From Bacteroidota bacterium (GTDB lineage: Bacteria; Bacteroidota; Bacteroidia; Bacteroidales; CG2-30-32-10), in NCBI GenBank assembly GCA_013377115.1, contig JACAAW010000001.1, positions 17,063-81,062 of the forward strand: a stretch of DNA of 64,000 bases. The letters run 5' to 3'. The notes below the pieces were generated by a model. The model saw nothing but the letters and a program-made list of their open reading frames with translations. It ran no database searches and was not told where the DNA came from. The position numbers were made by a program, and so were the translations under genes. The stretch's first letter is position 1. Each line of letters opens with the position of its first letter. Shown here piece by piece: positions 36,296 through 51,547 of the stretch.

Positions 36296-37042
36296 TTATT
36301 TCGTATTTAACAAAACACAACCATATGCCGCCAAAAACTGTGACTTTTCAGGACTTTCTGTGTTTTTAAACTTATCTTTAAACAATTTCAATATCATTGG
36401 ATGGTTATCAGGAATTCCACCAGTTACGACCAAAAAGTCTTCAACCAATGCCAATTCGAAACTTCTTTCAATGATTGAATTATAAATTCCCAAAACGATA
36501 CTTGGCATATTGGATCCATTTTTTATCATCCCAATAATTTCCGAAACAGCGAAAACAGTGCAAAAACTATTAATTCGAATTTCTTCAGTTGCTTTCTCGG
36601 CAAATTCATTGAATTCTAATGCTGAAATATCTAAGCGAAAAGCTATTTCTTCCAAAAATGAACCAGTACCAGCAGCACATTTTCGATTCATTTTAAATTT
36701 ATCAACTTGACCTTCTGCGTTAATTTTCACAAACTTTGTATCCTGACCGCCAATATCAATTACGGAACATGGCTTTTTGTAAATATCAAAAACAGCTTTG
36801 GACAATGCAATTATCTCAGAATTGGAAACCAAAGGAACCGTAAGCTTTTCGCGGCCATAGCCACAGGTAAAAATTGGATATTCGATTTCATGCTGGGCAG
36901 AAAAATGGTCAATTACTTTTTTTGAAGCTTTATCAAAGTCAAAACCAGTGCGGCCAACAAAATAATCGACAATAGCGTTATCTTCGTTAACGAGAACACC
37001 TTTGGTAAATGAAGATCCTAAATCAATTCCTATTCGGTACAT
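36296..37042 (-). CDS. BcrAD/BadFG/HgdC-family ATPase (electron-transfer activator)
   Basis: 248 aa. Actin-fold phosphate-1 motif IGIDLGSSFTKG, IDIGGQDTK, and cluster-bridging Cys contexts NRKCAAGTGSFLE and NSFCTVFAVSE. Confidence 0.85.
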   Translation of the reverse strand: MYRIGIDLGSSFTKGVLVNEDNAIVDYFVGRTGFDFDKASKKVIDHFSAQHEIEYPIFTCGYGREKLTVPLVSNSEIIALSKAVFDIYKKPCSVIDIGGQDTKFVKINAEGQVDKFKMNRKCAAGTGSFLEEIAFRLDISALEFNEFAEKATEEIRINSFCTVFAVSEIIGMIKNGSNMPSIVLGIYNSIIERSFELALVEDFLVVTGGIPDNHPMILKLFKDKFKNTESPEKSQFLAAYGCVLLNTK

Positions 37043-38330: not shown

Positions 38331-39104
38331 TTATTTATTTTTCCAAACTGGTTTTCTTTTTTCTAAGAATGAATTAATCCCTTCGTTTGCATCTTCGGTT
38401 TCCATCAACTCTTTTACAAACATATCAGTAAAAGCAGGCAGATTTTTATTCATGAAATAATCGAAAGAAGCACGGGCAGCGCGAGTTGCATATTTTAATG
38501 ATACTGCACTTTTGGTACAAATATTACTTGTAATCCATTTTTCAGTTTCTGCTTCCAACATTTCTTTGTCTTCAAATACCTCATTGAGCAAACCAAGGTT
38601 TTTTGCTTCATCAGCAGAAATAATTTTCCCTGTAATTAAAAGTTCCTCAGCTTTTGCATTTCCAATTTTCAATGGCAACATAATTGAGGCTGGCGGAGCA
38701 AAAACGCCAAGAACAATTTCTGGTTGACCTAATTTTGCTGATTTATCTGCAAACATAAAATTACAAACCAATGCTAATTCGAGACCTCCACCCAAACACT
38801 GACCAGAAATTTTAGACATGGTTGGAATATGAAGTTCAACTATTGTTTGGAATATTTTATGAAAAGTAGTGAGCATTTTTAATGCATTTTCTTTGGTATG
38901 TTCTTCAACACTGGCTCCAAATGAAAAATGTTTTCCTGCTCCCTCAAAAGTAATGAGTTTTAAATCGTTTCTGGTTTTGTACGAAACTAAAAGTTCAATC
39001 AGTTCATTCATCATGATATCATCAATAACATTGCCCTTACCGTCATCGAGAACAATTCTTGCGACGGTGTTTTCGTATAAATATTCTACTTTTATTTTTT
39101 GCAT
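38331..39104 (-). CDS. dch: enoyl-CoA hydratase-fold protein; candidate cyclohexa-1,5-diene-1-carbonyl-CoA hydratase
   Basis: 257 aa crotonase (GAGKHFSFGASVEEH, CLGGGLELALVC) in the same operon as the had and oah homologues. Substrate is inferred from context only. Confidence 0.55.
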   Translation of the reverse strand: MQKIKVEYLYENTVARIVLDDGKGNVIDDIMMNELIELLVSYKTRNDLKLITFEGAGKHFSFGASVEEHTKENALKMLTTFHKIFQTIVELHIPTMSKISGQCLGGGLELALVCNFMFADKSAKLGQPEIVLGVFAPPASIMLPLKIGNAKAEELLITGKIISADEAKNLGLLNEVFEDKEMLEAETEKWITSNICTKSAVSLKYATRAARASFDYFMNKNLPAFTDMFVKELMETEDANEGINSFLEKRKPVWKNK

Positions 39105-39639: not shown

Positions 39640-40722
39640 TTATTGAAATTGTGGCGAAATCGTTTTTATCAATTCATCATTCCACTCATGACCTTCAGCA
39701 AGCATTTGGCGTAATTTTACAAAATCAGCTTCTCTATTGTCTTTTGGACCATCATTGAATGCTCTGAAACCAGCTTTTCCTTCTGTCATCATGTTTAAAG
39801 CTAACCAATCTCTGTGGCTTTCTTTGTTCATATCCCAGAAAGCAAGTTTATGCATTCTAAGAGCATTAATGGTTTTGCTTAAACAATTTGGCATTGTATA
39901 AAGTAATTTTGTACAACATTTTTCAACGGCTTCGTCTAATGCTGTCAAATCAACAACACCAGATTTCATGATTTCTTTTCCTTTTGCTAAATCATCACCA
40001 GATTTTGATCTGCCATAAACAATTTGACCTCTATCGTCAACCCATTTATCAACAACAACCATTGGGTTTGCTATATATTCGCCATTAACTTTTAAAGCAG
40101 GAACTACTTCAGTTAGTAAACCTAAACGTAAAGCTTCATGAGCCGACCATGGATCGCAAACTGTGCAAGAATACATTGCATTTTCAATACCAACTAAAAG
40201 AGGTAAGAAATCTGTTGAACCACCAATTGGTGCACTTCCATGTTTAGGACCAGCTTGACCAAAACGGGCTAAATCCTGAGAAATAGAGAAATCGCAAGCC
40301 ATTCCAATTTCTTGTCCACCACCAATTCTCATTCCATTAACTCTGCAGATAACAGGTTTGTCATTCATTAAAATTGAAGAAACCATGTCATTAAACAAAC
40401 GCATGTATTGTTTGTATTCTTGAGGATTTCCAGCATAATATTCTGCGTATTCTTTAGTGTTTCCACCTGTACAGAATGCTTTATCTCCAACTCCAGTGAA
40501 AACAACAGCAACCACGCTTCTATCATTAGAAGATTCGCGCATTGCAAGAATTACTTCTTTAACTGCATCAGTTGTGTAAGAATTGTATTGACTTGGATTG
40601 TTTAGAATAATCCAGGCATTGAATAAACCTTTTATTGCATTTCCATGTTTATCTTTACAAGGGCGCAATTCATAAATAATGTTTTGGTATTCGTGCTTTA
40701 CTAAATTGTGACTTGATAACAT
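39640..40722 (-). CDS. oah: 6-oxocyclohex-1-ene-1-carbonyl-CoA hydrolase (ring-cleaving; Oah/BamA)
   Basis: 360 aa, an enlarged crotonase. It contains QYNSYTT and GGGQEIGMACDF about 90 aa apart. These are the peptides encoded by the bamA marker primers SP9/ASP1 as I recall them. Confidence 0.85.
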   Translation of the reverse strand: MLSSHNLVKHEYQNIIYELRPCKDKHGNAIKGLFNAWIILNNPSQYNSYTTDAVKEVILAMRESSNDRSVVAVVFTGVGDKAFCTGGNTKEYAEYYAGNPQEYKQYMRLFNDMVSSILMNDKPVICRVNGMRIGGGQEIGMACDFSISQDLARFGQAGPKHGSAPIGGSTDFLPLLVGIENAMYSCTVCDPWSAHEALRLGLLTEVVPALKVNGEYIANPMVVVDKWVDDRGQIVYGRSKSGDDLAKGKEIMKSGVVDLTALDEAVEKCCTKLLYTMPNCLSKTINALRMHKLAFWDMNKESHRDWLALNMMTEGKAGFRAFNDGPKDNREADFVKLRQMLAEGHEWNDELIKTISPQFQ

Positions 40723-40748: not shown

Positions 40749-41810
40749 TTATTGATTGTCGGGGACCAAAATAGACCTTTTTTTGTATTTATGTTCCAAT
40801 GTATTTTTGAATACTTCATTGATTTTCGACATTGGGAAAAGTTCAACAAAATCATTGATTTTCAATTTATCTGTCGCAATTAAATCAATTACTTCTGTAT
40901 ATAATTCAGGTTTGCAACCCCAGGTGCCAATTACTTTTGCATCGAAAGCCATTAAATTACTCAAGCGAACTTCTGGTTTATCCATGGTAAATCCAACAAT
41001 TGATAAAGTTGAAGTAAAGGTAATCAAATTGAATCCCAATTCTTGTCCGGCTTTTGTACCAGACATTTCGAAAATTTTCCAACCAAAGCGAGAAACGCCC
41101 AAGATTTTAACAATCTCTTTTACATTTTCTTTCACGGTTCTAATATCCATACCTTTAATATTGAGAGTGGCATCAATTCCGTTTGCTTTTGCGGTTGCTA
41201 ATTTTTCATTATCAATATCCAAAGCCAAAACTTTGGCACCCATAATTTTTGCGATTAATGCAGCATAAACGCCAACACCGCCAACACCAATAACAATTGC
41301 TAAATCGCCTACCTCCAATTCAGATTTTTTCAATACTTGATAAGGAGTTGAAATTGCATCAGCAACAACAGCTAATTTTTCCAAAGGGTATTTTTCTAAA
41401 ACGGCTTCAGGAACTGGACATAAAAATTTCGCAGGAACTTTGATATGAGAAGCAAAACCTCCATCAAAATCATTTCCTGGCATTAGTTGTTTTTGGCACA
41501 TATTGCTGCGTCCCTTTTTACAAAGTTCACATTCGCCACAAGGAAGAACAGCAGGAATAATCACATTTTTTCCAATCCACTCACTTGGTCCAGCTATGAC
41601 TTTTCCACTAATTTCATGACCAAGAGTTAAAGGCAATTCTTTTTTTGTTTTTACACCAAAATGCCAAAAGCTCAAATCTGTATGGCAAACGCCACAACCA
41701 GAAATTTTTATTAAAGCTTCATCTTGATTGAGTTCTGGTAAAGGACTTTCTACAAGTTGAAAATCAGCTTTTAGCTCCGTCATTTTCCAAGAATACATTT
41801 TTCCTTCCAT
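40749..41810 (-). CDS. had: Zn-dependent alcohol dehydrogenase; candidate 6-hydroxycyclohex-1-ene-1-carbonyl-CoA dehydrogenase
   Basis: 353 aa. Catalytic Zn ligands (GCGVCHTD, GHEISG), structural Zn site CGECELCKKGRSNMC, Rossmann motif GVGGVGV. Immediately upstream of oah. Confidence 0.7.
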   Translation of the reverse strand: MEGKMYSWKMTELKADFQLVESPLPELNQDEALIKISGCGVCHTDLSFWHFGVKTKKELPLTLGHEISGKVIAGPSEWIGKNVIIPAVLPCGECELCKKGRSNMCQKQLMPGNDFDGGFASHIKVPAKFLCPVPEAVLEKYPLEKLAVVADAISTPYQVLKKSELEVGDLAIVIGVGGVGVYAALIAKIMGAKVLALDIDNEKLATAKANGIDATLNIKGMDIRTVKENVKEIVKILGVSRFGWKIFEMSGTKAGQELGFNLITFTSTLSIVGFTMDKPEVRLSNLMAFDAKVIGTWGCKPELYTEVIDLIATDKLKINDFVELFPMSKINEVFKNTLEHKYKKRSILVPDNQ

Positions 41811-41830: not shown

Positions 41831-42799
41831 TTAAATATTTTCTCCGTCTTTGGATGTTCTATTTTTGTAGGTTATTGACCTTACTAAATTTGTAAACGTT
41901 AAATTTAATGGTGTTTTAATGTAATGTTTACGACCATATTCAACAATTTTTCCATTCATAAAATCAATTTCTGTCTCTTTTTTGTTAATTAAATCGACTG
42001 CTAATGAAGGCATGTGATTTCCGGCATTTTTCAAATAACGAATGCACAATTTAACAAAATTCTCAGGTAATTTTATTTCCTCTGCTTTTGCAACTTCAAC
42101 AGCTTCATAAATAATTTGTTCTACAATTTCTAAAGTATCTGGATGATCCATTGCTTCTTTCATGGTAAGATTGGAAATCGCACATAATGGACTTAAAGCC
42201 GCATTTAAAATTGTTTTTTCCCAAATTTTGTTAACGACTTCAAAAGAGCCAACTTTTTCGGTAATTAAACCAACGCTTGTTAATAATTCGGCTATTTTTT
42301 CAGCTATTTCAGGATGAGAATCATCAACAGAGGCAACATAGTTTGGTGGATTGAAAAAACTAACTGCTGTAACATTAGGAGCATGAAGATTTCCAGCATA
42401 GTTGACAACCATTCTCAACACTTTTGATTCTTCAAAATGTGTAATGTATTTTTTTCTAACTCCAATTCCATTTTGGGCAATCAATAAAAAAACATCTTTT
42501 TTATCACAAAGTTTTACTTGTTCGATAATACTATCAACATTATAATCTTTTACAGCGCTAATTAAAACATCAAAATCATGTTCCAGCAATTCTTGAATTG
42601 AGCTATAAACATGTTTAAAATAAGCTTGCTTTTCAATTTTATCAACCAATTCAATTCCTGAATTTCTAATTAAAGCAAGTTTGTTTTTATCAATGTCAGT
42701 AATAGCAACTTCACATCCAGCTTCTTTTAAATGAACTGCTAATGCTTGCCCAACAGGACCAAGACCAATAATTCCGAATCGAAATACTTTTTCTCCCAT
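41831..42799 (-). CDS. ketopantoate-reductase (ApbA/PanE) family NAD(P)-dependent oxidoreductase
   Basis: 322 aa. N-terminal GIIGLGPVG Rossmann fold and C-terminal PanE-type helical domain (KIWEKTILNAALSPL.., SLAVDL..KETEIDFMNG). Confidence 0.7.
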   Translation of the reverse strand: MGEKVFRFGIIGLGPVGQALAVHLKEAGCEVAITDIDKNKLALIRNSGIELVDKIEKQAYFKHVYSSIQELLEHDFDVLISAVKDYNVDSIIEQVKLCDKKDVFLLIAQNGIGVRKKYITHFEESKVLRMVVNYAGNLHAPNVTAVSFFNPPNYVASVDDSHPEIAEKIAELLTSVGLITEKVGSFEVVNKIWEKTILNAALSPLCAISNLTMKEAMDHPDTLEIVEQIIYEAVEVAKAEEIKLPENFVKLCIRYLKNAGNHMPSLAVDLINKKETEIDFMNGKIVEYGRKHYIKTPLNLTFTNLVRSITYKNRTSKDGENI

Positions 42800-42841: not shown

Positions 42842-44929
42842 TTACATAATAATACGAGCATCTACTGCACAAACCCTATTCTCATTTGCAAAAATGGGGT
42901 TTAAATCCAACTCTTTGATTTCTGGAAAATCATTCACCAAAGTGGAAATTCTTTGTAAAATCTCTGATACTTTTCCTTTATCAATTCCTTTTTTCCCTCT
43001 AAAATCATTCAATAATGCGGCCGATTTAATATTTTCGAGCATTTCATTTGCCTCAACATCAGTGGTTGGAGCAATTTTGAACACCACATCTTTGTATACC
43101 TCAACCATAACACCACCCATTCCGAACATAATTAAATGGCCTAATCCTTCTTCCTCCTTAACTCCGATAATTAATTCTCGGCTTTCAGGAAGAAATTCCT
43201 GAATGAAGAATTTTAAATCTGGTTGCTGAAGTTTGTTTTGCATATTTTGCACTACAGTTCTGACTTCCTCAGCGTTTTTAATATTTATTGCAACTCCACC
43301 CACATCACTTTTGTGAATGATTTTTTCCGAATCCGCTTTTATTACCAAAGGAAATCCAATTTTCTCGGCTTCAATAACAGCTTCATCAACAGTTTTTGCA
43401 ATACTCCATTTTGCTATTGGAATTTTGTAAGCCTCTAAAATTTCATAAACATCTTTGGCTGTTAAAACTTCTTTTCCTTGGGCTTTTACTGAATCGAAAA
43501 CGGCTTTAGCTTTGCCTTTATTGATATCTGTAAAAGTTTTTATTGAACCTTTTTTCCTCGATCTGATTTCATTGTATTTTGAAAGTGACGAAAGGGCTTT
43601 TGCAGCAGTTTCAGGGTAATCAAAACATGGAATTCCTCCATCAGCAAGAATTTTAGAAGTTTCACCCCAGTTTTGTTTATCCGTGATATAATTACAAACA
43701 ATTGGTTTTATTTGTTTTTTGCTTATTTCAGCAATTTCTTTAGCGACACTCACACAATCAACAAAAGGAGGAGTTACAAAAGTGAGATAAATCCCGTCAA
43801 TTTGCTCTTCATTCATCATCACTTCTATGGCGCTTTTAAAATGTGCAGCACCAGCAGTCGCCACAACATCCAAAGGATTGTTTATTGACGCTTGTTCCAA
43901 CATGGTTAGTTTTAATTCTGCTTTGGCTTTTTCCGAAATTGGAGGCATTGCCATACCACAAGAAACCAGTTCGTCGGTTGCAATAATAGCAGGACCACCA
44001 GTATTGGTAATCATTCCAACGTTGCTTCCATTTGGTATTGGTTGCGAAGAAAAAGCAATGGCAGCATGACAAATTTCCTCTAAATTAGAGAATGAAAGAA
44101 TTCCTGCTTTTTGAAATATCAGCTCCATTGTTACTCCACCAGCCAAACCACCAGTATGGGATTTGGAAGCCGCAGCACCTTTTTCGGTTCTACCAGCAGA
44201 AATGGCTAAAATTGGTTTTTTAGCAGCAACTTCCATCGCTACTTCCATGAATTCTTTTGTATTTGAAAGGCTTTCGAGATAAAGAATAATTACTTTGGTT
44301 CCTTCATCTTCGCCATAATATTTTAAAATTTCGGATATGGAAACATCAGAGCCATTGCCATTAGAAGAATAAAGCCTCAATCCAATTTCCATATCATGCA
44401 ATACTTGCATAATTAATGCCCCAACACCGCCACTTTGCGCAACAATAGAAATAGAACCTGGTTTGTAAAATGTAAATGTAAAATTGCAATAAGCATTGTA
44501 TTTTGGGTCGGAATTGATGGTACCTTGGCAGTTTGGACCAATAATTCTGATACCGTATTTTTTTGCGCGGGCTAAAAAATCATCTTCAAGAGCCTGACCT
44601 TCTGCCCCCATTTCTTTGAAACCAGCAGTATTGATAATAATAGCTTTTACTCCTTTTTTTCCGCAATTTTCAACCTCTTCTGGAACAAACGGTGGAGGTA
44701 TAACGATGTGAGCTAATTCGACTTCGCCAGGAACATCCATAATTGATGGATAAGCTTTTATTCCCCGAATCTCGTCAACCTTTGGGTTTATTGGATAAAT
44801 TGGCCCTGTAAAACCATAATGAACTAAGTTTTTGATGATGATATTTCCAATAGAAAGCTCTTTTACTGATGCACCAATTAACGCAATTGATTTGGGTTCG
44901 TAGAAATAATTCAAGTTATCTTTATTCAT
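42842..44929 (-). CDS. ADP-forming acyl-CoA synthetase (fused alpha-beta), first gene of the ring-processing operon
   Basis: 695 aa. CoA-binding N-domain (IALIGAS), phosphohistidine loop SKSHTGGLAG, C-terminal ATP-grasp domain. Paralogue of the gene at 13714-15771. Confidence 0.8.
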   Translation of the reverse strand: MNKDNLNYFYEPKSIALIGASVKELSIGNIIIKNLVHYGFTGPIYPINPKVDEIRGIKAYPSIMDVPGEVELAHIVIPPPFVPEEVENCGKKGVKAIIINTAGFKEMGAEGQALEDDFLARAKKYGIRIIGPNCQGTINSDPKYNAYCNFTFTFYKPGSISIVAQSGGVGALIMQVLHDMEIGLRLYSSNGNGSDVSISEILKYYGEDEGTKVIILYLESLSNTKEFMEVAMEVAAKKPILAISAGRTEKGAAASKSHTGGLAGGVTMELIFQKAGILSFSNLEEICHAAIAFSSQPIPNGSNVGMITNTGGPAIIATDELVSCGMAMPPISEKAKAELKLTMLEQASINNPLDVVATAGAAHFKSAIEVMMNEEQIDGIYLTFVTPPFVDCVSVAKEIAEISKKQIKPIVCNYITDKQNWGETSKILADGGIPCFDYPETAAKALSSLSKYNEIRSRKKGSIKTFTDINKGKAKAVFDSVKAQGKEVLTAKDVYEILEAYKIPIAKWSIAKTVDEAVIEAEKIGFPLVIKADSEKIIHKSDVGGVAINIKNAEEVRTVVQNMQNKLQQPDLKFFIQEFLPESRELIIGVKEEEGLGHLIMFGMGGVMVEVYKDVVFKIAPTTDVEANEMLENIKSAALLNDFRGKKGIDKGKVSEILQRISTLVNDFPEIKELDLNPIFANENRVCAVDARIIM

Positions 44930-45444: not shown

Positions 45445-46272
45445 CTATTTTTTCAACTTCTTATTTTTCTTCGCTTCGGGTAAAAAATTGTTTTCAGAAA
45501 TTACTTTTTCACCTGTTTTTAATTCCAATGCTTTTCTAGCATCACCTGCTATTTTACCGCCTTGTTTGGCAACCACTTTATTTTGGACAAAACCTTTTGG
45601 GTTTTTAGTTTTTACAATAGCTGTTGTTGATGCTTCTCCGAGCATTGAGAAAATTAATTCCAAATCGGTCATGTGGTCACGCAGGTTTTGGCTTTTCAAA
45701 CCTTTTACTTTCTTGTATTGAGAAGGTGTTAAACCAAATGTTGCTTTAGAAATTTCTGCAGTTAAAATAGAATATTCAATTTGTTCTTTTACGCCTCTAT
45801 TTTTCCATTCCTCAGTTAATTCTTCACGAATAGCAATGCTACGCATTCGTTTTTCAATCCAATCGTCAGGATAGCCTTTGGCTTTATACAATTCTCTGGT
45901 TCGTTGAGTTGCTAATTCCGGATTTTCAATTTCGTCTAATCTGTCTGAACCAACTTGTGCCAACCATTGCTTAAATGGTTCTGCTTTGGGTGATGGAATT
46001 GATTGAATGATTCTCAAAAGACCTTTAGCGTTTGCAGCCTGTACTTTACGTCTTTTACCATCAGCTGCCTGCATTTCAACTAGGGTACAAATTGTACCCC
46101 AGTTGCTTTTTAGTTGTTCATCACGACTTAAAATTCTTTTTATGTATTGCTTAACATCCGCACTATCGGTGAGGACTTCTACAACATCTTGCACTGAGAA
46201 ATACCATTTGTTCTCTGTTTCGTTCCAAACAGACCGTATTTGCTTACTTTCAAAAAGTTTTATATTGCTCAT
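45445..46272 (-). CDS. Bro-N domain / DinD-like (DNA-damage-inducible protein D family) protein
   Basis: About 275 aa from the ATG at 46272 (MSNIKLFESKQIRSVWNETENKWYFSVQDVVEVLT is Bro-N-like). The C-terminal region ..NLRDHMTDLELIFSMLGEASTT.. resembles DinD. Confidence 0.65.
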   Translation of the reverse strand: MSNIKLFESKQIRSVWNETENKWYFSVQDVVEVLTDSADVKQYIKRILSRDEQLKSNWGTICTLVEMQAADGKRRKVQAANAKGLLRIIQSIPSPKAEPFKQWLAQVGSDRLDEIENPELATQRTRELYKAKGYPDDWIEKRMRSIAIREELTEEWKNRGVKEQIEYSILTAEISKATFGLTPSQYKKVKGLKSQNLRDHMTDLELIFSMLGEASTTAIVKTKNPKGFVQNKVVAKQGGKIAGDARKALELKTGEKVISENNFLPEAKKNKKLKK

Positions 46273-46544
46273 TAATTTGTTTTTTCTGGAACTCAAAAAT
46301 ACTTAAAAGTGCGTACTTTAAAAAATGATTTTGAAAATTTGGAGGGTTGAGTTATCAACAATTATTTATTACAGTAGACAATTTACAACAAATATTCTAA
46401 GGAAAATCTATCAGGAAATACAAAAATTATTCCGCAATCACCCAATCACCATTTTTGATGAGAATATTGTTAGGATTGAAATCCCAGTTCATGTTACTTA
46501 ATAATTAAGAAAATTCTAAATAATTACAATTTCAATAATTGGTA

Positions 46545-47369
46545 TTATTTTTTATTCAATTTATGGTATCTAAATCCACCAAATATTGCAGCTCCAATTG
46601 CTCCAGAATAAATTGCATCGGGATGTGTCGAAAAAGTTAAACCTAATTTTGCTTCTGTTCCAAGTTCTTCAATTGCCTGAACCATACCTTTATTCATTGC
46701 CATTCCACCCATTAATGCAACTTTTGAATCGGCTTTTAATGAAGAAAGCAATTTTATTACTTTACTTGCTATGGATAAATGAATTCCTTTAATAATATCT
46801 GGAGTTGAAATCCCTCTAGAAACCATGTTAATCACATCCGTTTCTGCAAGTACTGAGCAAATACCTGAAGGCAATTCAGGTGACATTGATTTTAGTGATG
46901 CATCGCCAACTTCTTCTATTGCTAATCCTAAATATCTTGAAATGTTTTCAACAAATTGTCCCGAACCAGAAGCACATTGGCCTGTCATTTTATAATCCAA
47001 TACTCGGCCTTCATCACTAATGTTTATTGCTCTTACGAAAAGAGCTCCAAGATCCAAAACTGTTTTTGAACCAGGATTAAGAAATAGCCCACCTTTTGCA
47101 TGAGTAGTCATGCTATAAAAATGACCTTTCTTTCTTTTTAGAAGTTCTCCTTCTCCAGTTGAAGCCACATAAGCAATATCCTCGTATTTCAAATTGTTTT
47201 TTAAAAGTATTGCATCTAATAAAAGATCCGAAATACTTTCGGGATTCCTTTTTCTTATTTTCTCGTTTACCTTGTCAATAATAATTGGATTATCAGAATA
47301 CTCCATTAAAACCAGTTTAATTGTACTGCTTCCAACGTCAATTCCGAGGGTATAAACTTTATTATCCAT
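46545..47369 (-). CDS. bcrD: benzoyl-CoA reductase ATPase subunit, small (BcrD/BadG-like)
   Basis: 274 aa. LGIDVGSSTIK, cluster Cys contexts TGQCASGSGQF and SGICSVLAETD. Fourth gene of a C-B-A-D series. Confidence 0.75.
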   Translation of the reverse strand: MDNKVYTLGIDVGSSTIKLVLMEYSDNPIIIDKVNEKIRKRNPESISDLLLDAILLKNNLKYEDIAYVASTGEGELLKRKKGHFYSMTTHAKGGLFLNPGSKTVLDLGALFVRAINISDEGRVLDYKMTGQCASGSGQFVENISRYLGLAIEEVGDASLKSMSPELPSGICSVLAETDVINMVSRGISTPDIIKGIHLSIASKVIKLLSSLKADSKVALMGGMAMNKGMVQAIEELGTEAKLGLTFSTHPDAIYSGAIGAAIFGGFRYHKLNKK

Positions 47370-47401
47370 ATAGACTTATTTCTTTATTTAATTTTTACTG
47401 A

Positions 47402-48784
47402 TTATTCAACATGACTTCTTCTAGCAAACATTGCTCCGCCCAGAGCTCCCATAAATATTGAGTCAGGATGAATATTAATAATAATATCATCACCATAATT
47501 TTTATGTACCAACTCAGAAACGTATTTCAATACTGCTTGGTTACGAGCAACACCACCTGTAAATGTAAATTCATTTCTAACACCACCTGAACGAGCTAAT
47601 AAAGACATCGCTCTCATCACAATTGCGCGATGTAAACCGGCTAAAATATCAGAACGTTTTTGACCTACATTTAAAAGCTCACGAATTTCTGCAGCAGCAA
47701 AAACAGTACACGTTGAACAAATATTAACTTCACTTTTTGCCTCCAAAGCTAATGGTCCAAGTTCATTTAATGAAATACTAAACTCATCAGCAATGTAACC
47801 AAGATATCTTCCACATCCAGCAGCACATCTATCATTCATATGGAAACTAGTTACCAAACCATGACTATCAACCTGAATCGCTTTTGTATCCTGCCCACCA
47901 ATGTCTAAAACTGTTTTTGTATTAGGGAAAACAGCATGAGCTCCAAAAGCATGGCATAAAATCTCAGATTTGATACATTTCTCTGGGAATGGCAATAATG
48001 CTCTTCCATATCCTGTTCCTACCATATTGGCTATGTGAATATCCATATTGGCAACAAACATGATGTGTTCCTTTATTGAATCATGAACATTTTTAAAGTT
48101 GCCCTTCAATAAATTCATTTCAGTATCAAATTCTATACTTTGGTTTTCAGCAATAGTCTCTTCAAGATTCTGATATTTATCGTGAAGAATTTCTAATGCC
48201 TGAAACACCAACTCTTTGAAATTAAACTCCGTGAGCTCATTTTCTACGGATGTGATACTTTTATCATAAACCAGCATCAAAGGTTCAAATAGTGCTTTAT
48301 CTAATTTCCCAATTTCTTTGTTAAAATGCTCACTTACAATATCACGAAAAAATTGATTTTTAGAACCTAAATTTCCATACAAAAAATCATCATGAATAAT
48401 TGGTCCAATAGTTTTTACAATATTCTCAACATGCTTTGCAACAATATCTCTCAATTCGTTTTCGAAGGTAGTTGCAATGGTATCTTTGAATTGAACATTT
48501 AGGCGATCCAATCGTTTTTTAAACTGTAAATATTGAAATACGGATTCAACATCCTCGATATATTTTTTATATTCTGGTTTGCTCTGAATCTCATCTTCCA
48601 ATTTTAATTTGAGCAAAGAAAATCTAGCATTATAAATGGCCTCAAGTCTGGCAATTTCAGTTGCCACCGTATAATTTGCCCTTGTATTTGTAATTCCTCT
48701 TCCAATTATCTCATCTTTTTCATTAACAATTACTGCTTTAGATGTTGTTGAGCCGAGGTCTATTCCTAAAAAGTATTTCTTCAT
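47402..48784 (-). CDS. bcrA: benzoyl-CoA reductase ATPase subunit, large (BcrA/BadF-like)
   Basis: 460 aa. LGIDLGSTTSKA, then a ~200-aa insertion, then DIGGQDTKA, NDRCAAGCGRYL and CSTCTVFAAAE. The insertion-bearing large ATPase is characteristic of class I BCR alpha subunits. Confidence 0.75.
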   Translation of the reverse strand: MKKYFLGIDLGSTTSKAVIVNEKDEIIGRGITNTRANYTVATEIARLEAIYNARFSLLKLKLEDEIQSKPEYKKYIEDVESVFQYLQFKKRLDRLNVQFKDTIATTFENELRDIVAKHVENIVKTIGPIIHDDFLYGNLGSKNQFFRDIVSEHFNKEIGKLDKALFEPLMLVYDKSITSVENELTEFNFKELVFQALEILHDKYQNLEETIAENQSIEFDTEMNLLKGNFKNVHDSIKEHIMFVANMDIHIANMVGTGYGRALLPFPEKCIKSEILCHAFGAHAVFPNTKTVLDIGGQDTKAIQVDSHGLVTSFHMNDRCAAGCGRYLGYIADEFSISLNELGPLALEAKSEVNICSTCTVFAAAEIRELLNVGQKRSDILAGLHRAIVMRAMSLLARSGGVRNEFTFTGGVARNQAVLKYVSELVHKNYGDDIIINIHPDSIFMGALGGAMFARRSHVE

Positions 48785-48817
48785 TGATATCTGTTATTTC
48801 TAAATTTTGTAAAATTT

Positions 48818-50089
48818 TTAATACATCTTTCTTTGATCTAACATTTGGAAAAAAGACTCAAGTCTGTTTTTAATGTTGGAATAAGAAAAATATCTCGGAT
48901 CTACTAAATCAGATTCAATAAATCCGACAGGAATTTCCAGTTGTCGTTCTAATTGTTGCATAATCATTAATTGTCCGGCAGAAAAAGAATTACAACTTTT
49001 TATTGAATTCACTAAAAATCCATCGGCTTTATAATCTGTAATACATTTTGACAAAAGCTCCACTCTTTGTTCTAAATTTAGGTTGGTATAGCAATTCATA
49101 CAATATTCTGCAAGGCTTTCGAGTGGTTTCTCAGGATTAACTCTAAATCCCATATCATAAACACCGCCAACTTTGGTATAGGAAGAAGCAACGATGACGG
49201 CTCCCATATCATAGAATAATTTCCAAAATTCTCTGAAATGAGTCCAATTTGGAGGACCTTCAACTACCAATCTAAATCGTTCTTTTTCCATTACACCTTC
49301 AGGGGTGATTGGGCCCAAACCAAGATTAACTCTTTCTAAAATTTCATTATAAAGTTCATGATAATAATTTACTGCTTCATCAGAACCACGAAAACCATTA
49401 TTAATTGGCCCGATATAGTAAACGCCAGCAAAATAGGCATCAATAGGAGATGGAACATTTTTGGTGGTATCAAAAATCTTCATAATATAATCTTCCACCT
49501 TGCTAGAATTTCGTAAGCAGGCCTTTAATTTTTCTTCATCATATTTATTTCCAGAAACTTTTTCCATTTTAGGAATAACCTCTTCCTTCAATTGCTTCAC
49601 CATATAAGCAGTCATTTCTGGAGTAACTTTATGATTTTCTTGATAAGGTGTGTGCAATAAGGCAACAGGAACATCTGGATAAAGACGTTTTAATGTTTCG
49701 AACCATTTCATGAAAGTGAAACAGCCAGTATAACTTAAAAGAAAAAGATCGGGTTCAGGAATTTTTTCACCATTTGGACCAATGTTTCCATTAATCATCA
49801 TTCCAACATCACATTTAACATAGGTACAAACATCTTCAGAATGCCCTATTTTTTCTGCATCCCTAATAAAATCGGCAGATTTTTTTCTCATTCCAGATTG
49901 CAATGCATTTATTTCTGGATAAACAGGCAACATGCCGAATGACAATATTAATTCTGAAATATTCCCCGGAACAAAAGTATAAACAACTTTTTTTCCAGTT
50001 TCTTTTGCAGTACTCAAATCCTTAAAAAGACGAGAAATCATCTCTTTTTGAATAATCATACTTTTTTCTTTTGCAATATCTTTTGACAT
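48818..50089 (-). CDS. bcrB: benzoyl-CoA reductase core subunit (BcrB/BadE-like; 2-hydroxyacyl-CoA dehydratase fold)
   Basis: 423 aa. Family signature VVYTFVPGNISELILSFGMLPVYPE. Its size fits the ~48-kDa BCR beta subunit. Confidence 0.7.
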   Translation of the reverse strand: MSKDIAKEKSMIIQKEMISRLFKDLSTAKETGKKVVYTFVPGNISELILSFGMLPVYPEINALQSGMRKKSADFIRDAEKIGHSEDVCTYVKCDVGMMINGNIGPNGEKIPEPDLFLLSYTGCFTFMKWFETLKRLYPDVPVALLHTPYQENHKVTPEMTAYMVKQLKEEVIPKMEKVSGNKYDEEKLKACLRNSSKVEDYIMKIFDTTKNVPSPIDAYFAGVYYIGPINNGFRGSDEAVNYYHELYNEILERVNLGLGPITPEGVMEKERFRLVVEGPPNWTHFREFWKLFYDMGAVIVASSYTKVGGVYDMGFRVNPEKPLESLAEYCMNCYTNLNLEQRVELLSKCITDYKADGFLVNSIKSCNSFSAGQLMIMQQLERQLEIPVGFIESDLVDPRYFSYSNIKNRLESFFQMLDQRKMY

Positions 50090-50166
50090 ATTTTAAGTAA
50101 AATTAATAGTTAAAAAAACGAGTATTTTTGCAGTATAAATTCAAATATGAAATCTACTAAAATACA

Positions 50167-51330
50167 CTAATCCCAAAGTTTAATAGAATCTGAAAAAGTT
50201 CCAACCTGTTCTTTAATAACTTTAAACTGTCCTGTATTTTCACTATACAAGAAGCTTATGTAACGCATATTGTTTTCAATGCAGGCTTGTTGAAGAATTG
50301 GATGGTCTAATAATGCTGGGTCACAAAAACTAGGAGCAGCAAAAATAATTCCATCAACTTTTCTTTCGCTGGCAAGTTTTAATAATCGAGCTTCTTTCGG
50401 ATTATCAACGTCGTAAACTGATGAAGAGAAGGTGCTATTATTTAAATATGAGTGACTTAATGCTCTAAAAGGATCATTGCTGTCAGTTGGAATATCTCCT
50501 TGAATCCATCTGGTTCCTAAAAGGAAATCATCTTCAACAATATAACAACCTGCCAATTCAATAGCTCTAATTAATCCAACTGGAGGTTGCTCACAAAATG
50601 CTCCAATTACTAAAACTCTGATTTTATCTAGTGGCTCTCCACTTTCTTGATTAAGCAAACTAATTACTTTTTCAAGAATTTCATTATGCTCTTCAACTGG
50701 AATTACCAATCCTGCCCTTACAATATGGTAAACATCAGCAGCTGTTATTTTCCAAGGAGCAGCATCGCGAATGGAATAAATCTCTTCAGTTAATTTTCTA
50801 TTTTTATTGAACAAAGAAATAGAGTGATTAAGGCGTTCAGGTGTAATTTCAACATTGTTGATTTTTTTTACTTCTGCCAATACGTGTTCCATTTCTTGAA
50901 TATAGAAGGTTCCCCCAATATGAGATTTGAAATTTTGCGGATAATCCAGATATTTTACAAACTTACCTTTGTTTAAGAGTTTAAACATTCCAGATAAATT
51001 TCTGATAACATCACAAATAGAAGGAAAAATAAATCCATCAAAACCCTCAAAATGATTATCAAGAGCAAGCTCAATGATACCTCTGGGCATATGGCAAATA
51101 TAGGATTGATAATAAGCATCACCCTTTACTATTAGTTTTTTATCTCCACCACCCATTATACCAATGGCTAAACCATTTGCAGCATGTATAATTTCTCTAG
51201 GAAAATAAATTGGCATATAACCTACCAGAACCCTTGACTGATCCTGCGATTTCCACTCTTTTGCTCTAGTAAAATTTAAATCAAAGGAAAGATCTTCACA
51301 TTTACTAATAATTTCATTTAAAGATTCCAA
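50167..51330 (-). CDS. bcrC: benzoyl-CoA reductase core subunit (BcrC/BadD-like)
   Basis: 387 aa. VGYMPIYFPREIIHAANG signature. The ORF begins with TTG at 51330, and the next Met lies inside the conserved region, so a TTG start is likely. Confidence 0.7.
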   Translation of the reverse strand: MESLNEIISKCEDLSFDLNFTRAKEWKSQDQSRVLVGYMPIYFPREIIHAANGLAIGIMGGGDKKLIVKGDAYYQSYICHMPRGIIELALDNHFEGFDGFIFPSICDVIRNLSGMFKLLNKGKFVKYLDYPQNFKSHIGGTFYIQEMEHVLAEVKKINNVEITPERLNHSISLFNKNRKLTEEIYSIRDAAPWKITAADVYHIVRAGLVIPVEEHNEILEKVISLLNQESGEPLDKIRVLVIGAFCEQPPVGLIRAIELAGCYIVEDDFLLGTRWIQGDIPTDSNDPFRALSHSYLNNSTFSSSVYDVDNPKEARLLKLASERKVDGIIFAAPSFCDPALLDHPILQQACIENNMRYISFLYSENTGQFKVIKEQVGTFSDSIKLWD

Positions 51331-51357
51331 ATTGTAATTGTTTTTAATGAAGTTTTT

Positions 51358-51538
51358 TATAAAATCAAATATAGCAATCTAAATCAGTTATGTCAAATTT
51401 TAGAAATATTATAACAAATAACTAATCTTTATATCGCAAAGATAAAAATAAATCGACAAAAAACAAATCACAATTAAAAAAGGCGCCGTAAGTGCTGTTT
51501 TTCCTATCGCTTTAATAGGAAATTTAACTATTTTTAAC
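51358..51538 (-). promoter_or_regulatory. promoter/regulatory region, copy Y of the duplicated block (upstream of bcrC)
   Basis: On the minus strand: TTTG (51394-51397), N20, TATATTTG (51366-51373), 36 nt upstream of the TTG start. It carries the same 43-nt block as copy X and the palindrome TTCCTAT-N7-ATAGGAA (51501-51521). Confidence 0.7.
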
Positions 51539-51547
51539 TTTTCACTT

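What the first reader, a model, noticed from the sequence alone, without database searches (positions are those of the whole stretch)
46545..51330. Four-gene class I (ATP-dependent) benzoyl-CoA reductase in Thauera-like bcrCBAD order
Four consecutive minus-strand genes encode two different dehydratase-fold core subunits (387 and 423 aa) and two different actin-fold ATPases. The ATPases are 460 aa (with a ~200-aa insertion) and 274 aa. Each ATPase has both Cys contexts that bridge the shared [4Fe-4S] cluster (CAAG/CASG and C(T/S)V(F/L)A). 2-Hydroxyacyl-CoA dehydratases use a single homodimeric activator gene. The heterodimeric ATPase module plus two core subunits in C-B-A-D order, with sizes close to Thauera BcrC/B/A/D as I remember them (about 44, 48, 49 and 30 kDa), is the class I BCR signature. 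Spending 2 ATP per ring is usually associated with facultative anaerobes, so its presence here bears on the organism's energy budget. The first gene appears to use a TTG start.
Basis: partly seen in the sequence, partly recalled or inferred. Interest (0 to 1): 0.75.

Follow-up and report, generated by a model that had tools for sequence, protein, structure and literature searches.

The report
ATP-dependent benzoyl-CoA reductase operon
These four genes encode a Thauera-type, ATP-driven enzyme that breaks the aromaticity of benzoyl-CoA, inside a complete anaerobic aromatic-degradation island of an uncultured Bacteroidota bacterium; public databases already annotate it this way, so the finding is correct but ordinary.

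Summary
Four consecutive minus-strand genes (387, 423, 460 and 274 aa; TTG start on the first) encode two HGD-D-fold core subunits and two different actin-fold ATPases, in bcrC-B-A-D order. BcrB and BcrC pass NCBI's curated equivalog cut-offs for Thauera/Rhodopseudomonas-type benzoyl-CoA reductase; a solved MBR-type subunit fails that cut-off. A tree separates BcrB from the MBR, BZD and 2-hydroxyacyl-CoA dehydratase types. All cluster-ligand cysteines and the catalytic glutamate are present and invariant in about 80 orthologues. Genes for had, oah and a dch-like hydratase follow in the same transcription direction.

It is not new. The identical BcrB is already in NCBI as "benzoyl-CoA reductase subunit B [Bacteroidetes bacterium]". 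At least 591 GTDB species representatives carry relatives. Class I enzymes in strict anaerobes and in FCB-superphylum genomes are already published.

The differences from Thauera:
- No ferredoxin gene is linked.
- BcrA and BcrD score below their cut-offs; BcrA's insertion is divergent.
- A BRO-N gene splits the operon, and a duplicated promoter follows it.
- In the Bacteroidota/Ignavibacteria-type clade, bcrCBAD travels with an uncharacterised single-subunit HadB-like protein, a ketopantoate-reductase-like dehydrogenase and a second activase. The last two are usually fused. This module is the only part with real novelty potential.

The parts
50167..51330 (-). bcrC: gamma core subunit (387 aa, TTG start), the presumed electron-relay Fe-S subunit
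   Evidence: TIGR02263 scores 456.5 bits, above the 421.15 cut-off. It is PF06050. The best solved relative is MbdN (186 bits). C79, C106 and C336 align with Cys of HadC, MbdN, BzdN and DCCP. C246 and C262 are shared with MbdN only. All five are invariant in 77 orthologues. The TTG start is conserved.
48818..50089 (-). bcrB: beta core subunit (423 aa), the presumed catalytic subunit that binds benzoyl-CoA and an aqua-[4Fe-4S] cluster
   Evidence: TIGR02260 scores 632 bits, above the 486.55 cut-off. It is 100% identical to the NCBI entry 'MAG: benzoyl-CoA reductase subunit B [Bacteroidetes bacterium]'. C88, C123 and C366 correspond to BzdO C95, C128 and C380. Y90 corresponds to BzdO Y97 (PMC11971306). 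E59 corresponds to BzdO E65 through the HGD2/HadB alignments. All are invariant in 80 loci.
47402..48784 (-). bcrA: large ATPase subunit (460 aa) with a ~190-aa insertion at residues ~55-246
   Evidence: The best family is TIGR02259, matched end to end at 416 bits, below the 578 cut-off. It is PF01869. C320 and C359 occupy the cluster-ligand columns, and DIGGQDTK is intact. The insertion is only 22% identical to the Planctomycetota orthologue, against 67% for the C-terminal core.
46545..47369 (-). bcrD: small ATPase subunit (274 aa)
   Evidence: TIGR02261 scores 306.5 bits, just below the 312.85 cut-off. C132 and C171 align to HgdC C127 and C166. The phosphate-2 motif is degenerate (DLGALFVRA) in all orthologues of both clades.
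51331..51547 (-). Promoter and regulatory region of bcrCBAD
   Evidence: It holds a hairpin after the upstream gene, a 43-nt block and TTTG-N20-TATATTTG. It is the best sigma70-like hit in the region (51396-51368, 11 of 12). Positions 51354-51542 are repeated at 45030-45218 with 78% identity.
45445..46296 (-). BRO-N domain gene inserted between bcrD and the next pathway gene
   Evidence: PF02498 Bro-N. It has no counterpart in the 80 related genome loci, where the next gene follows bcrD directly. It is present on the identical Logan contig L001.
44930..45444 (-). Second copy of the bcr promoter and operator region, upstream of the ACD gene
   Evidence: Alignment A1 shows the 43-nt block is 100% identical and the -33/-7-like elements are conserved. 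There is a promoter-like hit at 45072-45044.
42842..44929 (-). ADP-forming acyl-CoA synthetase (ACD, fused alpha-beta, 695 aa). It either activates an acid substrate or makes ATP from acetyl-CoA.
   Evidence: It matches NF045493, NF045494 and TIGR02717 below their cut-offs, plus the Pfam domains CoA_binding, Succ_CoA_lig and ATP-grasp_5. It occupies the position held by an AMP-forming CoA ligase in L042. It is conserved after bcrD in L002-L010.
41831..42799 (-). Ketopantoate-reductase-family NAD(P)H dehydrogenase ('PanE-like')
   Evidence: TIGR00745 scores 166.8, above the 141 cut-off. It has the ApbA and ApbA_C domains and a GLGPVG motif. It is present in 42 of 49 FCB-type loci and 0 of 17 others. 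It is fused to the activase in 30 of 31 loci.
40749..41810 (-). [quoted passage not shown]
   Evidence: TIGR03201 scores 451, above the 338.65 cut-off.
39640..40722 (-). [quoted passage not shown]
   Evidence: TIGR03200 scores 593.4, above the 464.45 cut-off.
38331..39104 (-). dch-like cyclohexa-1,5-diene-1-carbonyl-CoA hydratase
   Evidence: The best family is TIGR03189 at 212 bits, below the 292.5 cut-off. It is syntenic with had and oah in relatives.
37093..38328 (-). HGD2: a lone HadB-like (alpha-type) HGD-D protein of unknown substrate
   Evidence: PF06050. HadB of 3O3M scores 178 bits, above MbdO at 103. Three Cys and the PEN glutamate are conserved. It falls among HAD-like proteins in the tree. 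It is present in 40 of 49 FCB-type loci and 0 of 17 others. Databases name it only generically.
36296..37042 (-). Act2: HgdC/HadI-type activase (248 aa), presumably homodimeric
   Evidence: TIGR00241 scores 167.5, above the 125.4 cut-off. C122 (KCAAGTG) and C161 (FCTVFA) match the sequence contexts of the bridging-cluster Cys of the HgdC family; this is a motif match, with no residue-level alignment of Act2 run.
32953..36261 (-). Thiolase (35065-36261) and a 701-aa protein with a C-terminal crotonase domain (32953-35058), presumed beta-oxidation steps
   Evidence: The pair recurs in L017 and L073 at 59-71% identity.
26557..30301 (+). 4-hydroxybenzoyl-CoA reductase-like molybdoenzyme: fused gamma-alpha (931 aa) plus the beta subunit
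   Evidence: TIGR03194 scores 816 (below 994.55), TIGR03193 scores 151.6 and TIGR03195 scores 207.6. Homologues lie next to bcrC in 15 of 49 FCB-type loci.

Best explanation

Mechanism, inferred from the family. BcrA and BcrD form a heterodimer that shares one [4Fe-4S] cluster, held by BcrA C320/C359 and BcrD C132/C171. The cluster is reduced by an unlinked low-potential donor. ATP hydrolysis then drives the electron to the BcrBC dimer. BcrC relays it through a Cys-ligated Fe-S cluster. BcrB holds a three-Cys [4Fe-4S] cluster (C88, C123, C366) whose fourth ligand is water. With E59, this site delivers hydrogen and electrons to the ring of benzoyl-CoA, giving cyclohexa-1,5-diene-1-carbonyl-CoA. 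Two ATP are spent per ring.

The dch-like, had and oah genes downstream hydrate, oxidise and open the ring to 3-hydroxypimeloyl-CoA. Beta-oxidation genes in the same island take it on to acetyl-CoA.

Shown here: gene content, family membership of B and C, ligand conservation, synteny and distribution. Inferred: substrate, ATP stoichiometry and electron donor.
For: - Family scores. BcrB scores 632 bits and BcrC 456.5 bits, both above the curated equivalog cut-offs. The bzd-type and Had models score 84-173 bits.
- Calibration. The solved MBR-type MbdO reaches only 220 bits on the BcrB model, so the cut-off separates BCR from MBR.
- Tree. BcrB sits in a clade with orthologues whose loci read had-oah-dch-bcrCBAD. 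From my own knowledge this is the Thauera order. MbdO, BzdO and HadB lie elsewhere.
- Solved structures. MbdO/N/Q rank above HadB/C/HadI for BcrB, BcrC and BcrA; for BcrD, MbdQ (125.8 bits) is essentially level with HgdC (124.2) and HadI (119.3). BzdO/N rank below HadB/C for the two core subunits.
- Residues. The BzdO ligands C95/C128/C380, plus Y97 and E65, have counterparts in BcrB (PMC11971306). The ATPase Cys align with HgdC C127 and C166. All are invariant in 77-80 orthologues.
- Context. had scores 451 (cut-off 339) and oah 593 (cut-off 464). A dch-like gene, hcr-like genes, acyl-CoA dehydrogenase with ETF, thiolases and hydroxyacyl-CoA dehydrogenases lie in the same island.
- Annotation. 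NCBI and JGI name the identical and related proteins BcrB.
Against: - BcrA (416 bits against 578) and BcrD (306.5 against 312.85) are below their equivalog cut-offs. For BcrA this traces to the divergent insertion.
- The dch-like gene is below its cut-off, at 212 against 292.5.
- No ferredoxin or flavodoxin gene is found in the 64-kb window, nor within 10 kb in the 23 related loci inspected.
- BzdO His131, proposed as an acid/base partner, is Phe126 here. It is also Phe in the solved MbdO and in all 80 orthologues, so this is a BCR/MBR-type trait.
- A BRO-N gene interrupts the ancestral operon.
- No member of this Bacteroidota clade has been assayed, so the substrate is inferred.
Confidence: 0.85

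Rival explanations
1. It is a genuine class I aryl-CoA reductase, but its physiological substrate is a substituted or different aryl-CoA (for example hydroxy-, methyl- or halo-benzoyl-CoA) rather than benzoyl-CoA. This would parallel how MbdONQP and MbrBCAD diverged from Bcr.
For: The FCB-type clade is a distinct subclade, with BcrB only 62-66% identical to the clade that has canonical synteny. Its A subunit is divergent. It travels with extra genes (HGD2, PanE-like, activase, hcr-like) that suggest particular feeder pathways.
Against: BcrB and BcrC pass equivalog cut-offs that the MBR-type fails. The residues mapped from BzdO are identical in the FCB-type and canonical clades. had and oah pass their equivalog cut-offs and the dch-like gene has the hydratase model as its best hit, which fits an unsubstituted dienoyl-CoA. 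An hcr-like 4-hydroxybenzoyl-CoA reductase would already funnel hydroxylated substrate to benzoyl-CoA.
Confidence: 0.1
2. It is a 2-hydroxyacyl-CoA dehydratase-type enzyme (catalytic electron recycling, no net reduction) that happens to have a heterodimeric activator.
For: All four proteins belong to the same BCR/HAD superfamily. HadB, HadC and HadI are the second-best solved relatives of BcrB, BcrC and BcrA; for BcrD the activases HgdC and HadI score essentially level with MbdQ. A 2-hydroxyacid-type dehydrogenase (PanE-like) is nearby.
Against: Had models score 164-173 bits against cut-offs of 700-750, while the Bcr models score 456-632. The tree separates them. The window already contains a separate HAD-like protein with its own single activase (HGD2 and Act2), which is the better partner for the PanE-like gene. 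The BcrA insertion and the C-B-A-D order are Bcr traits.
Confidence: 0.02
3. The cluster is a decaying or poorly expressed remnant. The BRO-N insertion and other selfish elements (RAYT, four-helix-bundle gene) have disrupted the operon, so the pathway is not functional in this organism.
For: Three insertions unique to this genome lie inside the island: BRO-N at 45445-46296, the four-helix-bundle gene at 39139-39549 and the RAYT unit at 53302-54502.
Against: All ORFs are intact and all functional residues are retained. A copy of the bcr promoter and operator lies downstream of the BRO-N gene, consistent with maintained expression of the distal genes. Gene-by-gene identity to relatives is 65-90% with no frameshifts.
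Confidence: 0.03

Closest known systems
BCR-type class I benzoyl-CoA reductase (Thauera aromatica BcrCBAD; Rhodopseudomonas palustris BadDEFG)
   Same: It has four subunits in C-B-A-D order. B and C pass the NCBIfam equivalog models built for this type. BcrA carries the family's insertion, matched end to end by TIGR02259. BcrD has the same degenerate phosphate-2 motif as orthologues with canonical synteny. Subunit masses are similar (the Thauera values are from my own knowledge). had, oah and dch are linked.
   Different: No ferredoxin gene follows bcrD. had, oah and dch lie downstream rather than upstream of bcr. A and D are below the equivalog cut-offs, and the BcrA insertion is 22% identical to the orthologue from the canonical-synteny clade. 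FCB-specific companions HGD2, PanE-like and Act2 are present. The host is an uncultured Bacteroidota bacterium with ~33% GC rather than a denitrifying or phototrophic proteobacterium. I could not obtain a named Thauera sequence for a direct pairwise identity.
MBR-type 3-methylbenzoyl-CoA reductase MbdONQP (Thauera chlorobenzoica; PDB 9G87/9GAI/9GAL/9GBA)
   Same: It is the closest solved structure for all four subunits, at 190, 186, 212 and 126 bits; for the small ATPase the margin over HgdC (124 bits) is negligible. It shares the three Cys in the B-type subunit, Phe at the BzdO-His131 position, and five Cys in the C-type subunit, including C246 and C262.
   Different: MbdO scores only 220 bits on the BcrB model and lies in a separate clade. 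MbdQ has 269 aa and lacks the ~190-aa insertion of BcrA.
BZD-type BzdNOPQ (Aromatoleum sp. CIB; BzdNO structure 8S02, PMC11971306)
   Same: The catalytic-subunit ligand set is the same (Cys95/128/380 correspond to C88/123/366), as are Tyr97 (Y90) and Glu65 (E59).
   Different: Sequence similarity is low, at 66 and 97 bits. BzdN binds a six-Cys [8Fe-9S] double cubane. The window's BcrC keeps only three of those positions: it lacks the 'mCtytPEE' and 'ddqCsGsRYF' cysteines and has C246 and C262 instead. BzdO His131 is Phe126 here.
2-Hydroxyacyl-CoA dehydratases with their activators (HadBC/HadI 3O3M/4EHT; HgdAB/HgdC 1HUX)
   Same: They share the superfamily fold, three-Cys clusters in both core subunits, and the bridging-cluster Cys in the ATPase.
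   Different: They use one homodimeric activator and recycle a single electron catalytically (PMC11971306). Profile scores are far below their cut-offs. They form a separate clade, which instead contains the window's HGD2.

Membership tests
BCR-type class I benzoyl-CoA reductase (Bcr/Bad) | Four different subunits encoded together, in gene order C-B-A-D | tested here: met
   There are four contiguous minus-strand ORFs with 32-77 nt spacers. Their best families are BcrC, BcrB, BcrA and BcrD, in that order.
BCR-type class I benzoyl-CoA reductase (Bcr/Bad) | Core subunits reach the curated equivalog score for BcrB and BcrC | tested here: met
   TIGR02260 scores 632 against 486.55. TIGR02263 scores 456.5 against 421.15. 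The cut-off excludes MBR-type MbdO, which scores 220 bits.
BCR-type class I benzoyl-CoA reductase (Bcr/Bad) | ATPase subunits reach the curated equivalog score for BcrA and BcrD | tested here: not met
   TIGR02259 scores 416.2 against 578. TIGR02261 scores 306.5 against 312.85. Both are still the best-scoring families and match end to end. The FCB orthologue in L042 gives 438 and 313.3, and the Planctomycetota orthologue passes both with 592.6 and 346.5. The BcrA shortfall maps to the divergent insertion.
BCR-type class I benzoyl-CoA reductase (Bcr/Bad) | Large insertion in the A-type ATPase that is absent from HAD activators and from MbdQ/BzdQ | tested here: met
   Residues ~55-246 are unmatched by MbdQ, HadI and HgdC but are covered by the 432-position TIGR02259 model.
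BCR/HAD radical enzyme family | Two Cys per ATPase subunit that bridge a shared [4Fe-4S] cluster | tested here: met
   BcrD C132 and C171 align to HgdC C127 and C166. BcrA C320 and C359 sit in the same columns as in MbdQ and HadI. They are invariant in 73-78 orthologues.
Class I benzoyl-CoA reductase (catalytic subunit, as defined by the BzdO structure) | Three-Cys [4Fe-4S] site with an open coordination position, plus the catalytic Glu and the thioester-binding Tyr | tested here: met
   C88, C123 and C366 correspond to BzdO C95, C128 and C380. Y90 corresponds to Y97. E59 corresponds to E65 (PMC11971306). The water ligand itself cannot be seen from sequence.
Class I benzoyl-CoA reductase (catalytic subunit, as defined by the BzdO structure) | His131 next to the cluster-bound water | tested here: not met
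   The position is Phe126 here. It is also Phe in the solved MbdO and in all 80 orthologues. This marks the BZD type, not class I as a whole.
BZD-type class I reductase | Six-Cys [8Fe-9S] double-cubane site in the N/C-type subunit | tested here: not met
   Only three of the BzdN/DCCP Cys positions are kept (C79, C106, C336), and two BzdN/DCCP Cys positions are not Cys. TIGR03190 and TIGR03191 score 93 and 84 bits against cut-offs near 450.
Benzoyl-CoA degradation gene cluster (Thauera type) | Linked dch, had and oah genes | tested here: met
   had scores 451 against 338.65 and oah scores 593.4 against 464.45. For the dch-like gene the best family scores 212, below 292.5. The arrangement differs from canonical: the genes are downstream, not upstream.
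Benzoyl-CoA degradation gene cluster (Thauera type) | Ferredoxin gene adjacent to bcrD as the dedicated electron donor (own knowledge of the Thauera cluster) | tested here: not met
   No CxxCxxCxxxC-type or other Cys-rich small ORF is found in the window apart from QueG, an ArsR-family regulator (62534-62884), an ArsR-linked Cys-rich protein and an antisense ORF. None was found within 10 kb in the 23 related loci inspected.
Class I benzoyl-CoA reductase | [quoted passage not shown] | not testable with these tools
   This requires an anaerobic enzyme assay.
2-Hydroxyacyl-CoA dehydratase (HadBC/HgdAB/FldBC) | Core subunits group with HAD alpha/beta subunits, and a single homodimeric activator is used | tested here: not met
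   HadB and HadC models score 173 and 164 bits against cut-offs of 750 and 700. The tree separates them. Two different ATPase genes are present.

The most novel reading that the evidence does not exclude
In the Bacteroidota/Ignavibacteria/Calditrichia-type clade, bcrCBAD is not a stand-alone four-gene system. It is tied to a previously undescribed second ATP-dependent radical-enzyme module with three parts:
- a lone HadB-like catalytic protein with no beta partner (HGD2, 37093-38328);
- a ketopantoate-reductase-family NAD(P)H dehydrogenase (41831-42799);
- an HgdC-type activase (36296-37042).

The last two are fused into one polypeptide in 30 of 31 related loci. Within 10 kb of bcrB the module is found more often than had/oah/dch: 40-42 of 49 loci against 10-25 of 49. 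It is absent from the clade with canonical Thauera synteny (0 of 17).

The most novel reading is that this is a new single-subunit 2-hydroxyacyl-CoA dehydratase pathway. A 2-oxo acid would be reduced to an (R)-2-hydroxy acid, converted to its CoA ester by the adjacent ligase or ACD, and dehydrated to an enoyl-CoA. This could feed aromatic 2-oxo acids such as phenylpyruvate or 4-hydroxyphenylpyruvate into benzoyl-CoA through side-chain beta-oxidation. A less likely alternative is that the module serves the reductase itself. The substrate is pure inference.
Probability: 0.3. Interest if true: 0.6.

Novelty: new member of a known kind. Interest (0 to 1): 0.3.

Why it matters
The reductase itself adds little. 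It confirms that Thauera-type ATP-dependent ring reduction is common in uncultured Bacteroidota, Ignavibacteria and many other phyla: at least 591 species representatives, with every one of the top 80 hits a MAG. The textbook link between class I enzymes and facultative denitrifiers is therefore a cultivation bias, a point already made in the literature.

The practical value is for annotation. BcrA and BcrD of this clade fall below NCBI's cut-offs, so pipelines will name only two of the four subunits.

The more useful lead is the clade-specific HGD2 plus KPR::activase module and the missing ferredoxin. If the module is a feeder pathway, it would define how these abundant anoxic-water and sediment bacteria channel amino-acid- or lignin-derived 2-oxo acids into benzoyl-CoA. 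It would also add a single-subunit member to the 2-hydroxyacyl-CoA dehydratase family.

Tried and rejected
- **Named Thauera/Rhodopseudomonas reference.** I tried three routes to get one for direct identity and tree anchoring. Cluster look-up of ten 50%-representatives gave no organism names except Kariarchaeaceae. A tblastn search of the plasmid collection gave only relatives of 25% identity or less. The single genome scan returned its best 80 loci, all MAGs. BCR-type membership therefore rests on the NCBIfam equivalog models, the MbdO calibration and synteny.
- **Literature.** Searches for Bacteroidota/Bacteroidales/Ignavibacteria class I BCR, for the MbdONQP structure paper and for the KPR plus HAD combination found nothing specific. 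One search was wasted on a search that was too loose.
- **Ferredoxin.** Two motif and Cys-content scans of the window, plus a scan of 23 related loci, found none.
- **BZD-type [8Fe-9S] in BcrC.** Rejected on the Cys pattern.
- **KPR domain as electron donor to the fused activase.** I judged this unlikely. KPR-family enzymes are cofactor-free hydride-transfer enzymes (own knowledge) and only a GxGxxG motif is evident. I did not test it.
- **Structure prediction and fold search.** Not run. Sequence-level matches to solved BCR/HAD structures were already unambiguous.
- It cannot be addressed from a 64-kb window.

Full report
**1. Observation**

| Gene | Coordinates | Length | Start |
|---|---|---|---|
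| bcrC | 50167-51330 | 387 aa | TTG |
| bcrB | 48818-50089 | 423 aa | ATG |
| bcrA | 47402-48784 | 460 aa | ATG |
| bcrD | 46545-47369 | 274 aa | ATG |

The first two are PF06050 (HGD-D). The last two are PF01869 (BcrAD_BadFG). The members of each pair are distant paralogues, about 28% identical locally. Calculated masses are 43.9, 48.7, 51.8 and 29.5 kDa.

The 460-aa ATPase aligns to the 269-aa MbdQ over residues 3-54 and 247-456. That leaves an insertion of about 190 aa.

In BcrD they align to Cys127 and Cys166 of the HgdC activator 1HUX.

The TTG start is the first canonical start after the upstream in-frame stop. It is TTG at the same codon in 13 loci, and in 12 of the 13 closest in the listing. 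It is ATG at that column in 35 more distant loci.

**2. Family assignment**

| Subunit | NCBIfam model | Score (bits) | Cut-off | Result |
|---|---|---|---|---|
| BcrB | TIGR02260 | 632 | 486.55 | pass |
| BcrC | TIGR02263 | 456.5 | 421.15 | pass |
| BcrA | TIGR02259 | 416 | 578 | below |
| BcrD | TIGR02261 | 306.5 | 312.85 | just below |

BcrA and BcrD are nevertheless matched end to end by these models, which are their best hits. The bzd-type and Had models score only 84-173 bits.

I calibrated the BcrB cut-off with other sequences:

| Sequence | Score on TIGR02260 (bits) |
|---|---|
| MbdO (solved, MBR-type) | 220 |
| Window BcrB | 632 |
| Chitinophagaceae orthologue | 704 |
| Planctomycetota orthologue | 724 |
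| Top 50%-cluster representative | 815 |

The cut-off therefore separates the BCR type from the MBR type.

A neighbour-joining tree was built from 91 B-type sequences. These were 50%-identity representatives from an exhaustive HMMER search, orthologues translated from related loci, and MbdO, HadB and BzdO transcribed from PDB alignments. The window's BcrB falls in a tight clade. That clade is sister to orthologues whose loci read had-oah-dch-bcrCBAD. It is well apart from the MBR, BZD and HAD groups.

Against solved structures, MbdO/N/Q score highest for BcrB, BcrC and BcrA, followed by HadB/C/HadI. For BcrD, MbdQ (125.8 bits) is essentially level with HgdC (124.2) and HadI (119.3). BzdO/N and then the double-cubane protein follow for the two core subunits.

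**3. Catalytic and cluster residues**

The 2025 BzdNO structure paper (PMC11971306) defines the catalytic subunit's features. These are a [4Fe-4S] cluster on Cys95, Cys128 and Cys380 with a water ligand, Glu65 and His131 beside it, and Tyr97 on the thioester.

- In the window's BcrB the counterparts are C88, C123, C366, E59 and Y90.
- His131 is Phe126. It is also Phe in the solved MbdO, so this is a difference between the BCR/MBR types and the BZD type, not a defect.
- BzdN carries a six-Cys [8Fe-9S] cluster. The window's BcrC keeps only three of those positions (C79, C106, C336). It shares two other cysteines (C246, C262) with MbdN.
- Across 77-80 orthologues from both clades, every one of these residues is invariant. 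The same holds for the four ATPase cysteines and BcrA's DIGGQDTK motif.
- BcrD's phosphate-2 motif is degenerate in all of them.

**4. Context**

All the following genes are transcribed in the same direction as bcrCBAD, and they follow it in this order:

1. A BRO-N gene.
2. An ADP-forming acyl-CoA synthetase (ACD).
3. A ketopantoate-reductase-family dehydrogenase (PanE-like).
4. had (451 bits, cut-off 339).
5. oah (593 bits, cut-off 464).
6. A four-helix-bundle gene.
7. A dch-like hydratase (212 bits, below the 292.5 cut-off).
8. A lone HadB-like HGD-D protein (HGD2).
9. A 248-aa activase (Act2).
10. A thiolase.
11. A 701-aa crotonase-domain protein.

Elsewhere in the window are:
- a 4-hydroxybenzoyl-CoA-reductase-like molybdoenzyme;
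- acyl-CoA dehydrogenases with ETF;
- further thiolases;
- a hydroxyacyl-CoA dehydrogenase and a crotonase.

Together these make a full benzoyl-CoA island. No ferredoxin or flavodoxin candidate exists anywhere in the window.

**5. How common is it?**

- The identical BcrB is in NCBI as 'MAG: benzoyl-CoA reductase subunit B [Bacteroidetes bacterium]'.
- More than 100 clusters at 80-98% identity come from Bacteroidales, Bacteroidota, Ignavibacteria and Chlorobi MAGs, and NCBI and JGI name them the same way.
- The same four genes plus BRO-N occur on a Logan contig from SRR12042538.
- A scan of one genome per GTDB species found at least 591 relatives.
- The best 80 are all MAGs. They include Bacteroidales, Flavobacteriales, Saprospiraceae, Chitinophagaceae, Ignavibacteria, Calditrichaceae, Planctomycetota, Acidobacteriota, Polyangia, Gemmatimonadales and Krumholzibacteriia. 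Several of the closest have record titles pointing to lake metagenomes.

Published work already reports bcrABCD in FCB-superphylum Krumholzibacteriota MAGs (PMC10936416). It also reports class I reductases in strictly anaerobic deep-sea Chloroflexi and in Ferroglobus (PMC5736913).

**6. Two architectures**

| Feature | Loci with BcrB 62-66% identical | FCB-type loci (BcrB 70% or more) |
|---|---|---|
| Gene order | had-oah-dch-bcrCBAD | bcrCBAD, CoA ligase, HGD2, PanE-like::activase, thiolase, had-oah-dch |
| had and oah within 10 kb | 15 of 17 each (dch 13 of 17) | had 25, oah 12, dch 10 of 49 |
| HGD2 | 0 of 17 | 40 of 49 |
| PanE-like | 0 of 17 | 42 of 49 |
| hcr-like genes | 1 of 17 | 15 of 49, often upstream of bcrC |

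In 30 of 31 FCB-type loci where they are adjacent, the PanE-like dehydrogenase and the activase form one ORF.

The window and its nearest Bacteroidales relatives have a rearranged version. The order is bcrCBAD, ACD, PanE-like, had, oah, dch, HGD2, Act2, with the fusion split.

HGD2 resembles the catalytic alpha subunit HadB (178 bits), with three Cys and the PEN glutamate. It groups with HAD-like proteins. It has no beta partner and only a generic name in databases.

The PanE-like protein's solved relatives are all KPR-family enzymes. From my own knowledge, 3WFI is a D-mandelate (D-2-hydroxyacid) dehydrogenase.

The simplest reading is a 2-oxo acid to (R)-2-hydroxyacyl-CoA to enoyl-CoA feeder route. 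The substrate is unknown, and I found no literature on this combination.

**7. Operon structure in this genome**

- Relatives have the next pathway gene 15-55 nt after bcrD. Here a BRO-N gene lies between them.
- A 189-nt stretch upstream of bcrC (51354-51542) is repeated at 78% identity just downstream of BRO-N (45030-45218).
- The repeat includes a hairpin, a 43-nt perfectly conserved block containing ATCTTT-N7-AAAGAT, and a TTTG-N20-TATATTTG element. The last matches the Bacteroidetes -33/-7 promoter consensus; that consensus is from my own knowledge.
- This fits a promoter copy that keeps the distal genes expressed and co-regulated.
- The RAYT gene with orf123, and the four-helix-bundle gene, are each flanked by inverted repeats and have no counterparts in related loci.

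**8. Verdict**

This is a BCR-type class I benzoyl-CoA reductase operon, a new member of a well-known kind that automated pipelines already name. Interest is modest.

They are the FCB-specific HGD2 / KPR::activase module, the missing ferredoxin, and the replacement of an AMP-forming ligase by an ADP-forming synthetase.

Noticed in passing
window 36296-38328 and 41831-42799; related loci L015-L057 (for example L042 15236-18416): A lone HadB-like HGD-D protein (HGD2), a ketopantoate-reductase-family dehydrogenase and an HgdC-type activase accompany bcrCBAD in 40-42 of 49 Bacteroidota/Ignavibacteria-type loci and 0 of 17 other loci. The dehydrogenase and activase are fused into one ~610-aa protein in 30 of 31 loci. 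The function is uncharacterised and the database names are generic.
   Followed up: partly
window 51354-51542 and 45030-45218: This is a 189-nt direct repeat (78% identity) of the bcrC upstream region, placed upstream of the ACD gene. It contains a hairpin, a 43-nt 100%-identical block with the palindrome ATCTTT-N7-AAAGAT, and TTTG-N20-TATATTTG, a Bacteroidetes-type promoter. It suggests a shared regulator and a promoter duplication linked to the BRO-N insertion.
   Followed up: partly
window 45445-46296: A BRO-N domain gene (283 aa, TTG start) is inserted between bcrD and the ACD gene. It is absent from all 80 related genome loci but present on the identical Logan contig L001.
   Followed up: partly
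window 53302-54502: A REP-associated tyrosine transposase gene (53344-53919) and a 123-aa hydrophobic ORF (54002-54373) are flanked by 44-nt inverted repeats (53302-53345 and 54459-54502). Each arm is itself a hairpin (AGACwACAAAAGTTTTAAAAACTTTTGTwGTCT).
   Followed up: partly
window 39114-39624: A four-helix-bundle gene (TIGR02436) at 39139-39549 sits between oah and dch. It is flanked by 26-nt inverted repeats (39114-39139 and 39599-39624) and is absent from related loci.
   Followed up: no
window 42842-44929; L042 13609-15354: An ADP-forming acyl-CoA synthetase (695 aa) occupies the slot after bcrD in the window and its closest relatives. The one more distant FCB-type locus read in detail (L042) has an AMP-forming acyl-CoA ligase there, and other FCB-type loci show a ~1.8-kb unmatched gap at that position. 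It could be a cheaper acid-activating enzyme or an ATP-yielding acetyl-CoA outlet. A second paralogue (13714-15807) lies next to a tryptophanase gene (12309-13685).
   Followed up: partly
window 26557-30301: A 4-hydroxybenzoyl-CoA-reductase-like molybdoenzyme has its gamma (2Fe-2S) and alpha subunits fused into one 931-aa protein, followed by a beta-like subunit. All scores are below the equivalog cut-offs. Homologues lie next to bcrC in 15 of 49 FCB-type loci.
   Followed up: partly
window 50167-51330 (BcrC residues C79, C106, C246, C262, C336): Five cysteines are invariant in 77 BcrC orthologues and shared with the solved MbdN. That is two more than the three-Cys site of HadC, and the pattern differs from the six-Cys [8Fe-9S] site of BzdN. 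The cluster type of BCR-type gamma subunits is therefore not obvious from sequence.
   Followed up: partly
window 46545-47369 (BcrD residues 106-114): BcrD's phosphate-2 ATP-binding motif is degenerate (DLGALFVRA instead of DIGGQDxK) in all orthologues of both clades, while BcrA keeps DIGGQDTK. This hints at functional asymmetry between the two ATPase subunits.
   Followed up: partly
window 32953-35058: A 701-aa protein has only a weak C-terminal crotonase match. Its N-terminal ~415 residues match no Pfam or NCBIfam family. It is paired with a thiolase here and in L017 and L073 (59-71% identity).
   Followed up: no
window 62534-63267: An ArsR/SmtB-family regulator is followed by a 123-aa protein with 14 cysteines in CC/CxC motifs and a hydrophobic segment. 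It may be a metal-binding protein.
   Followed up: no
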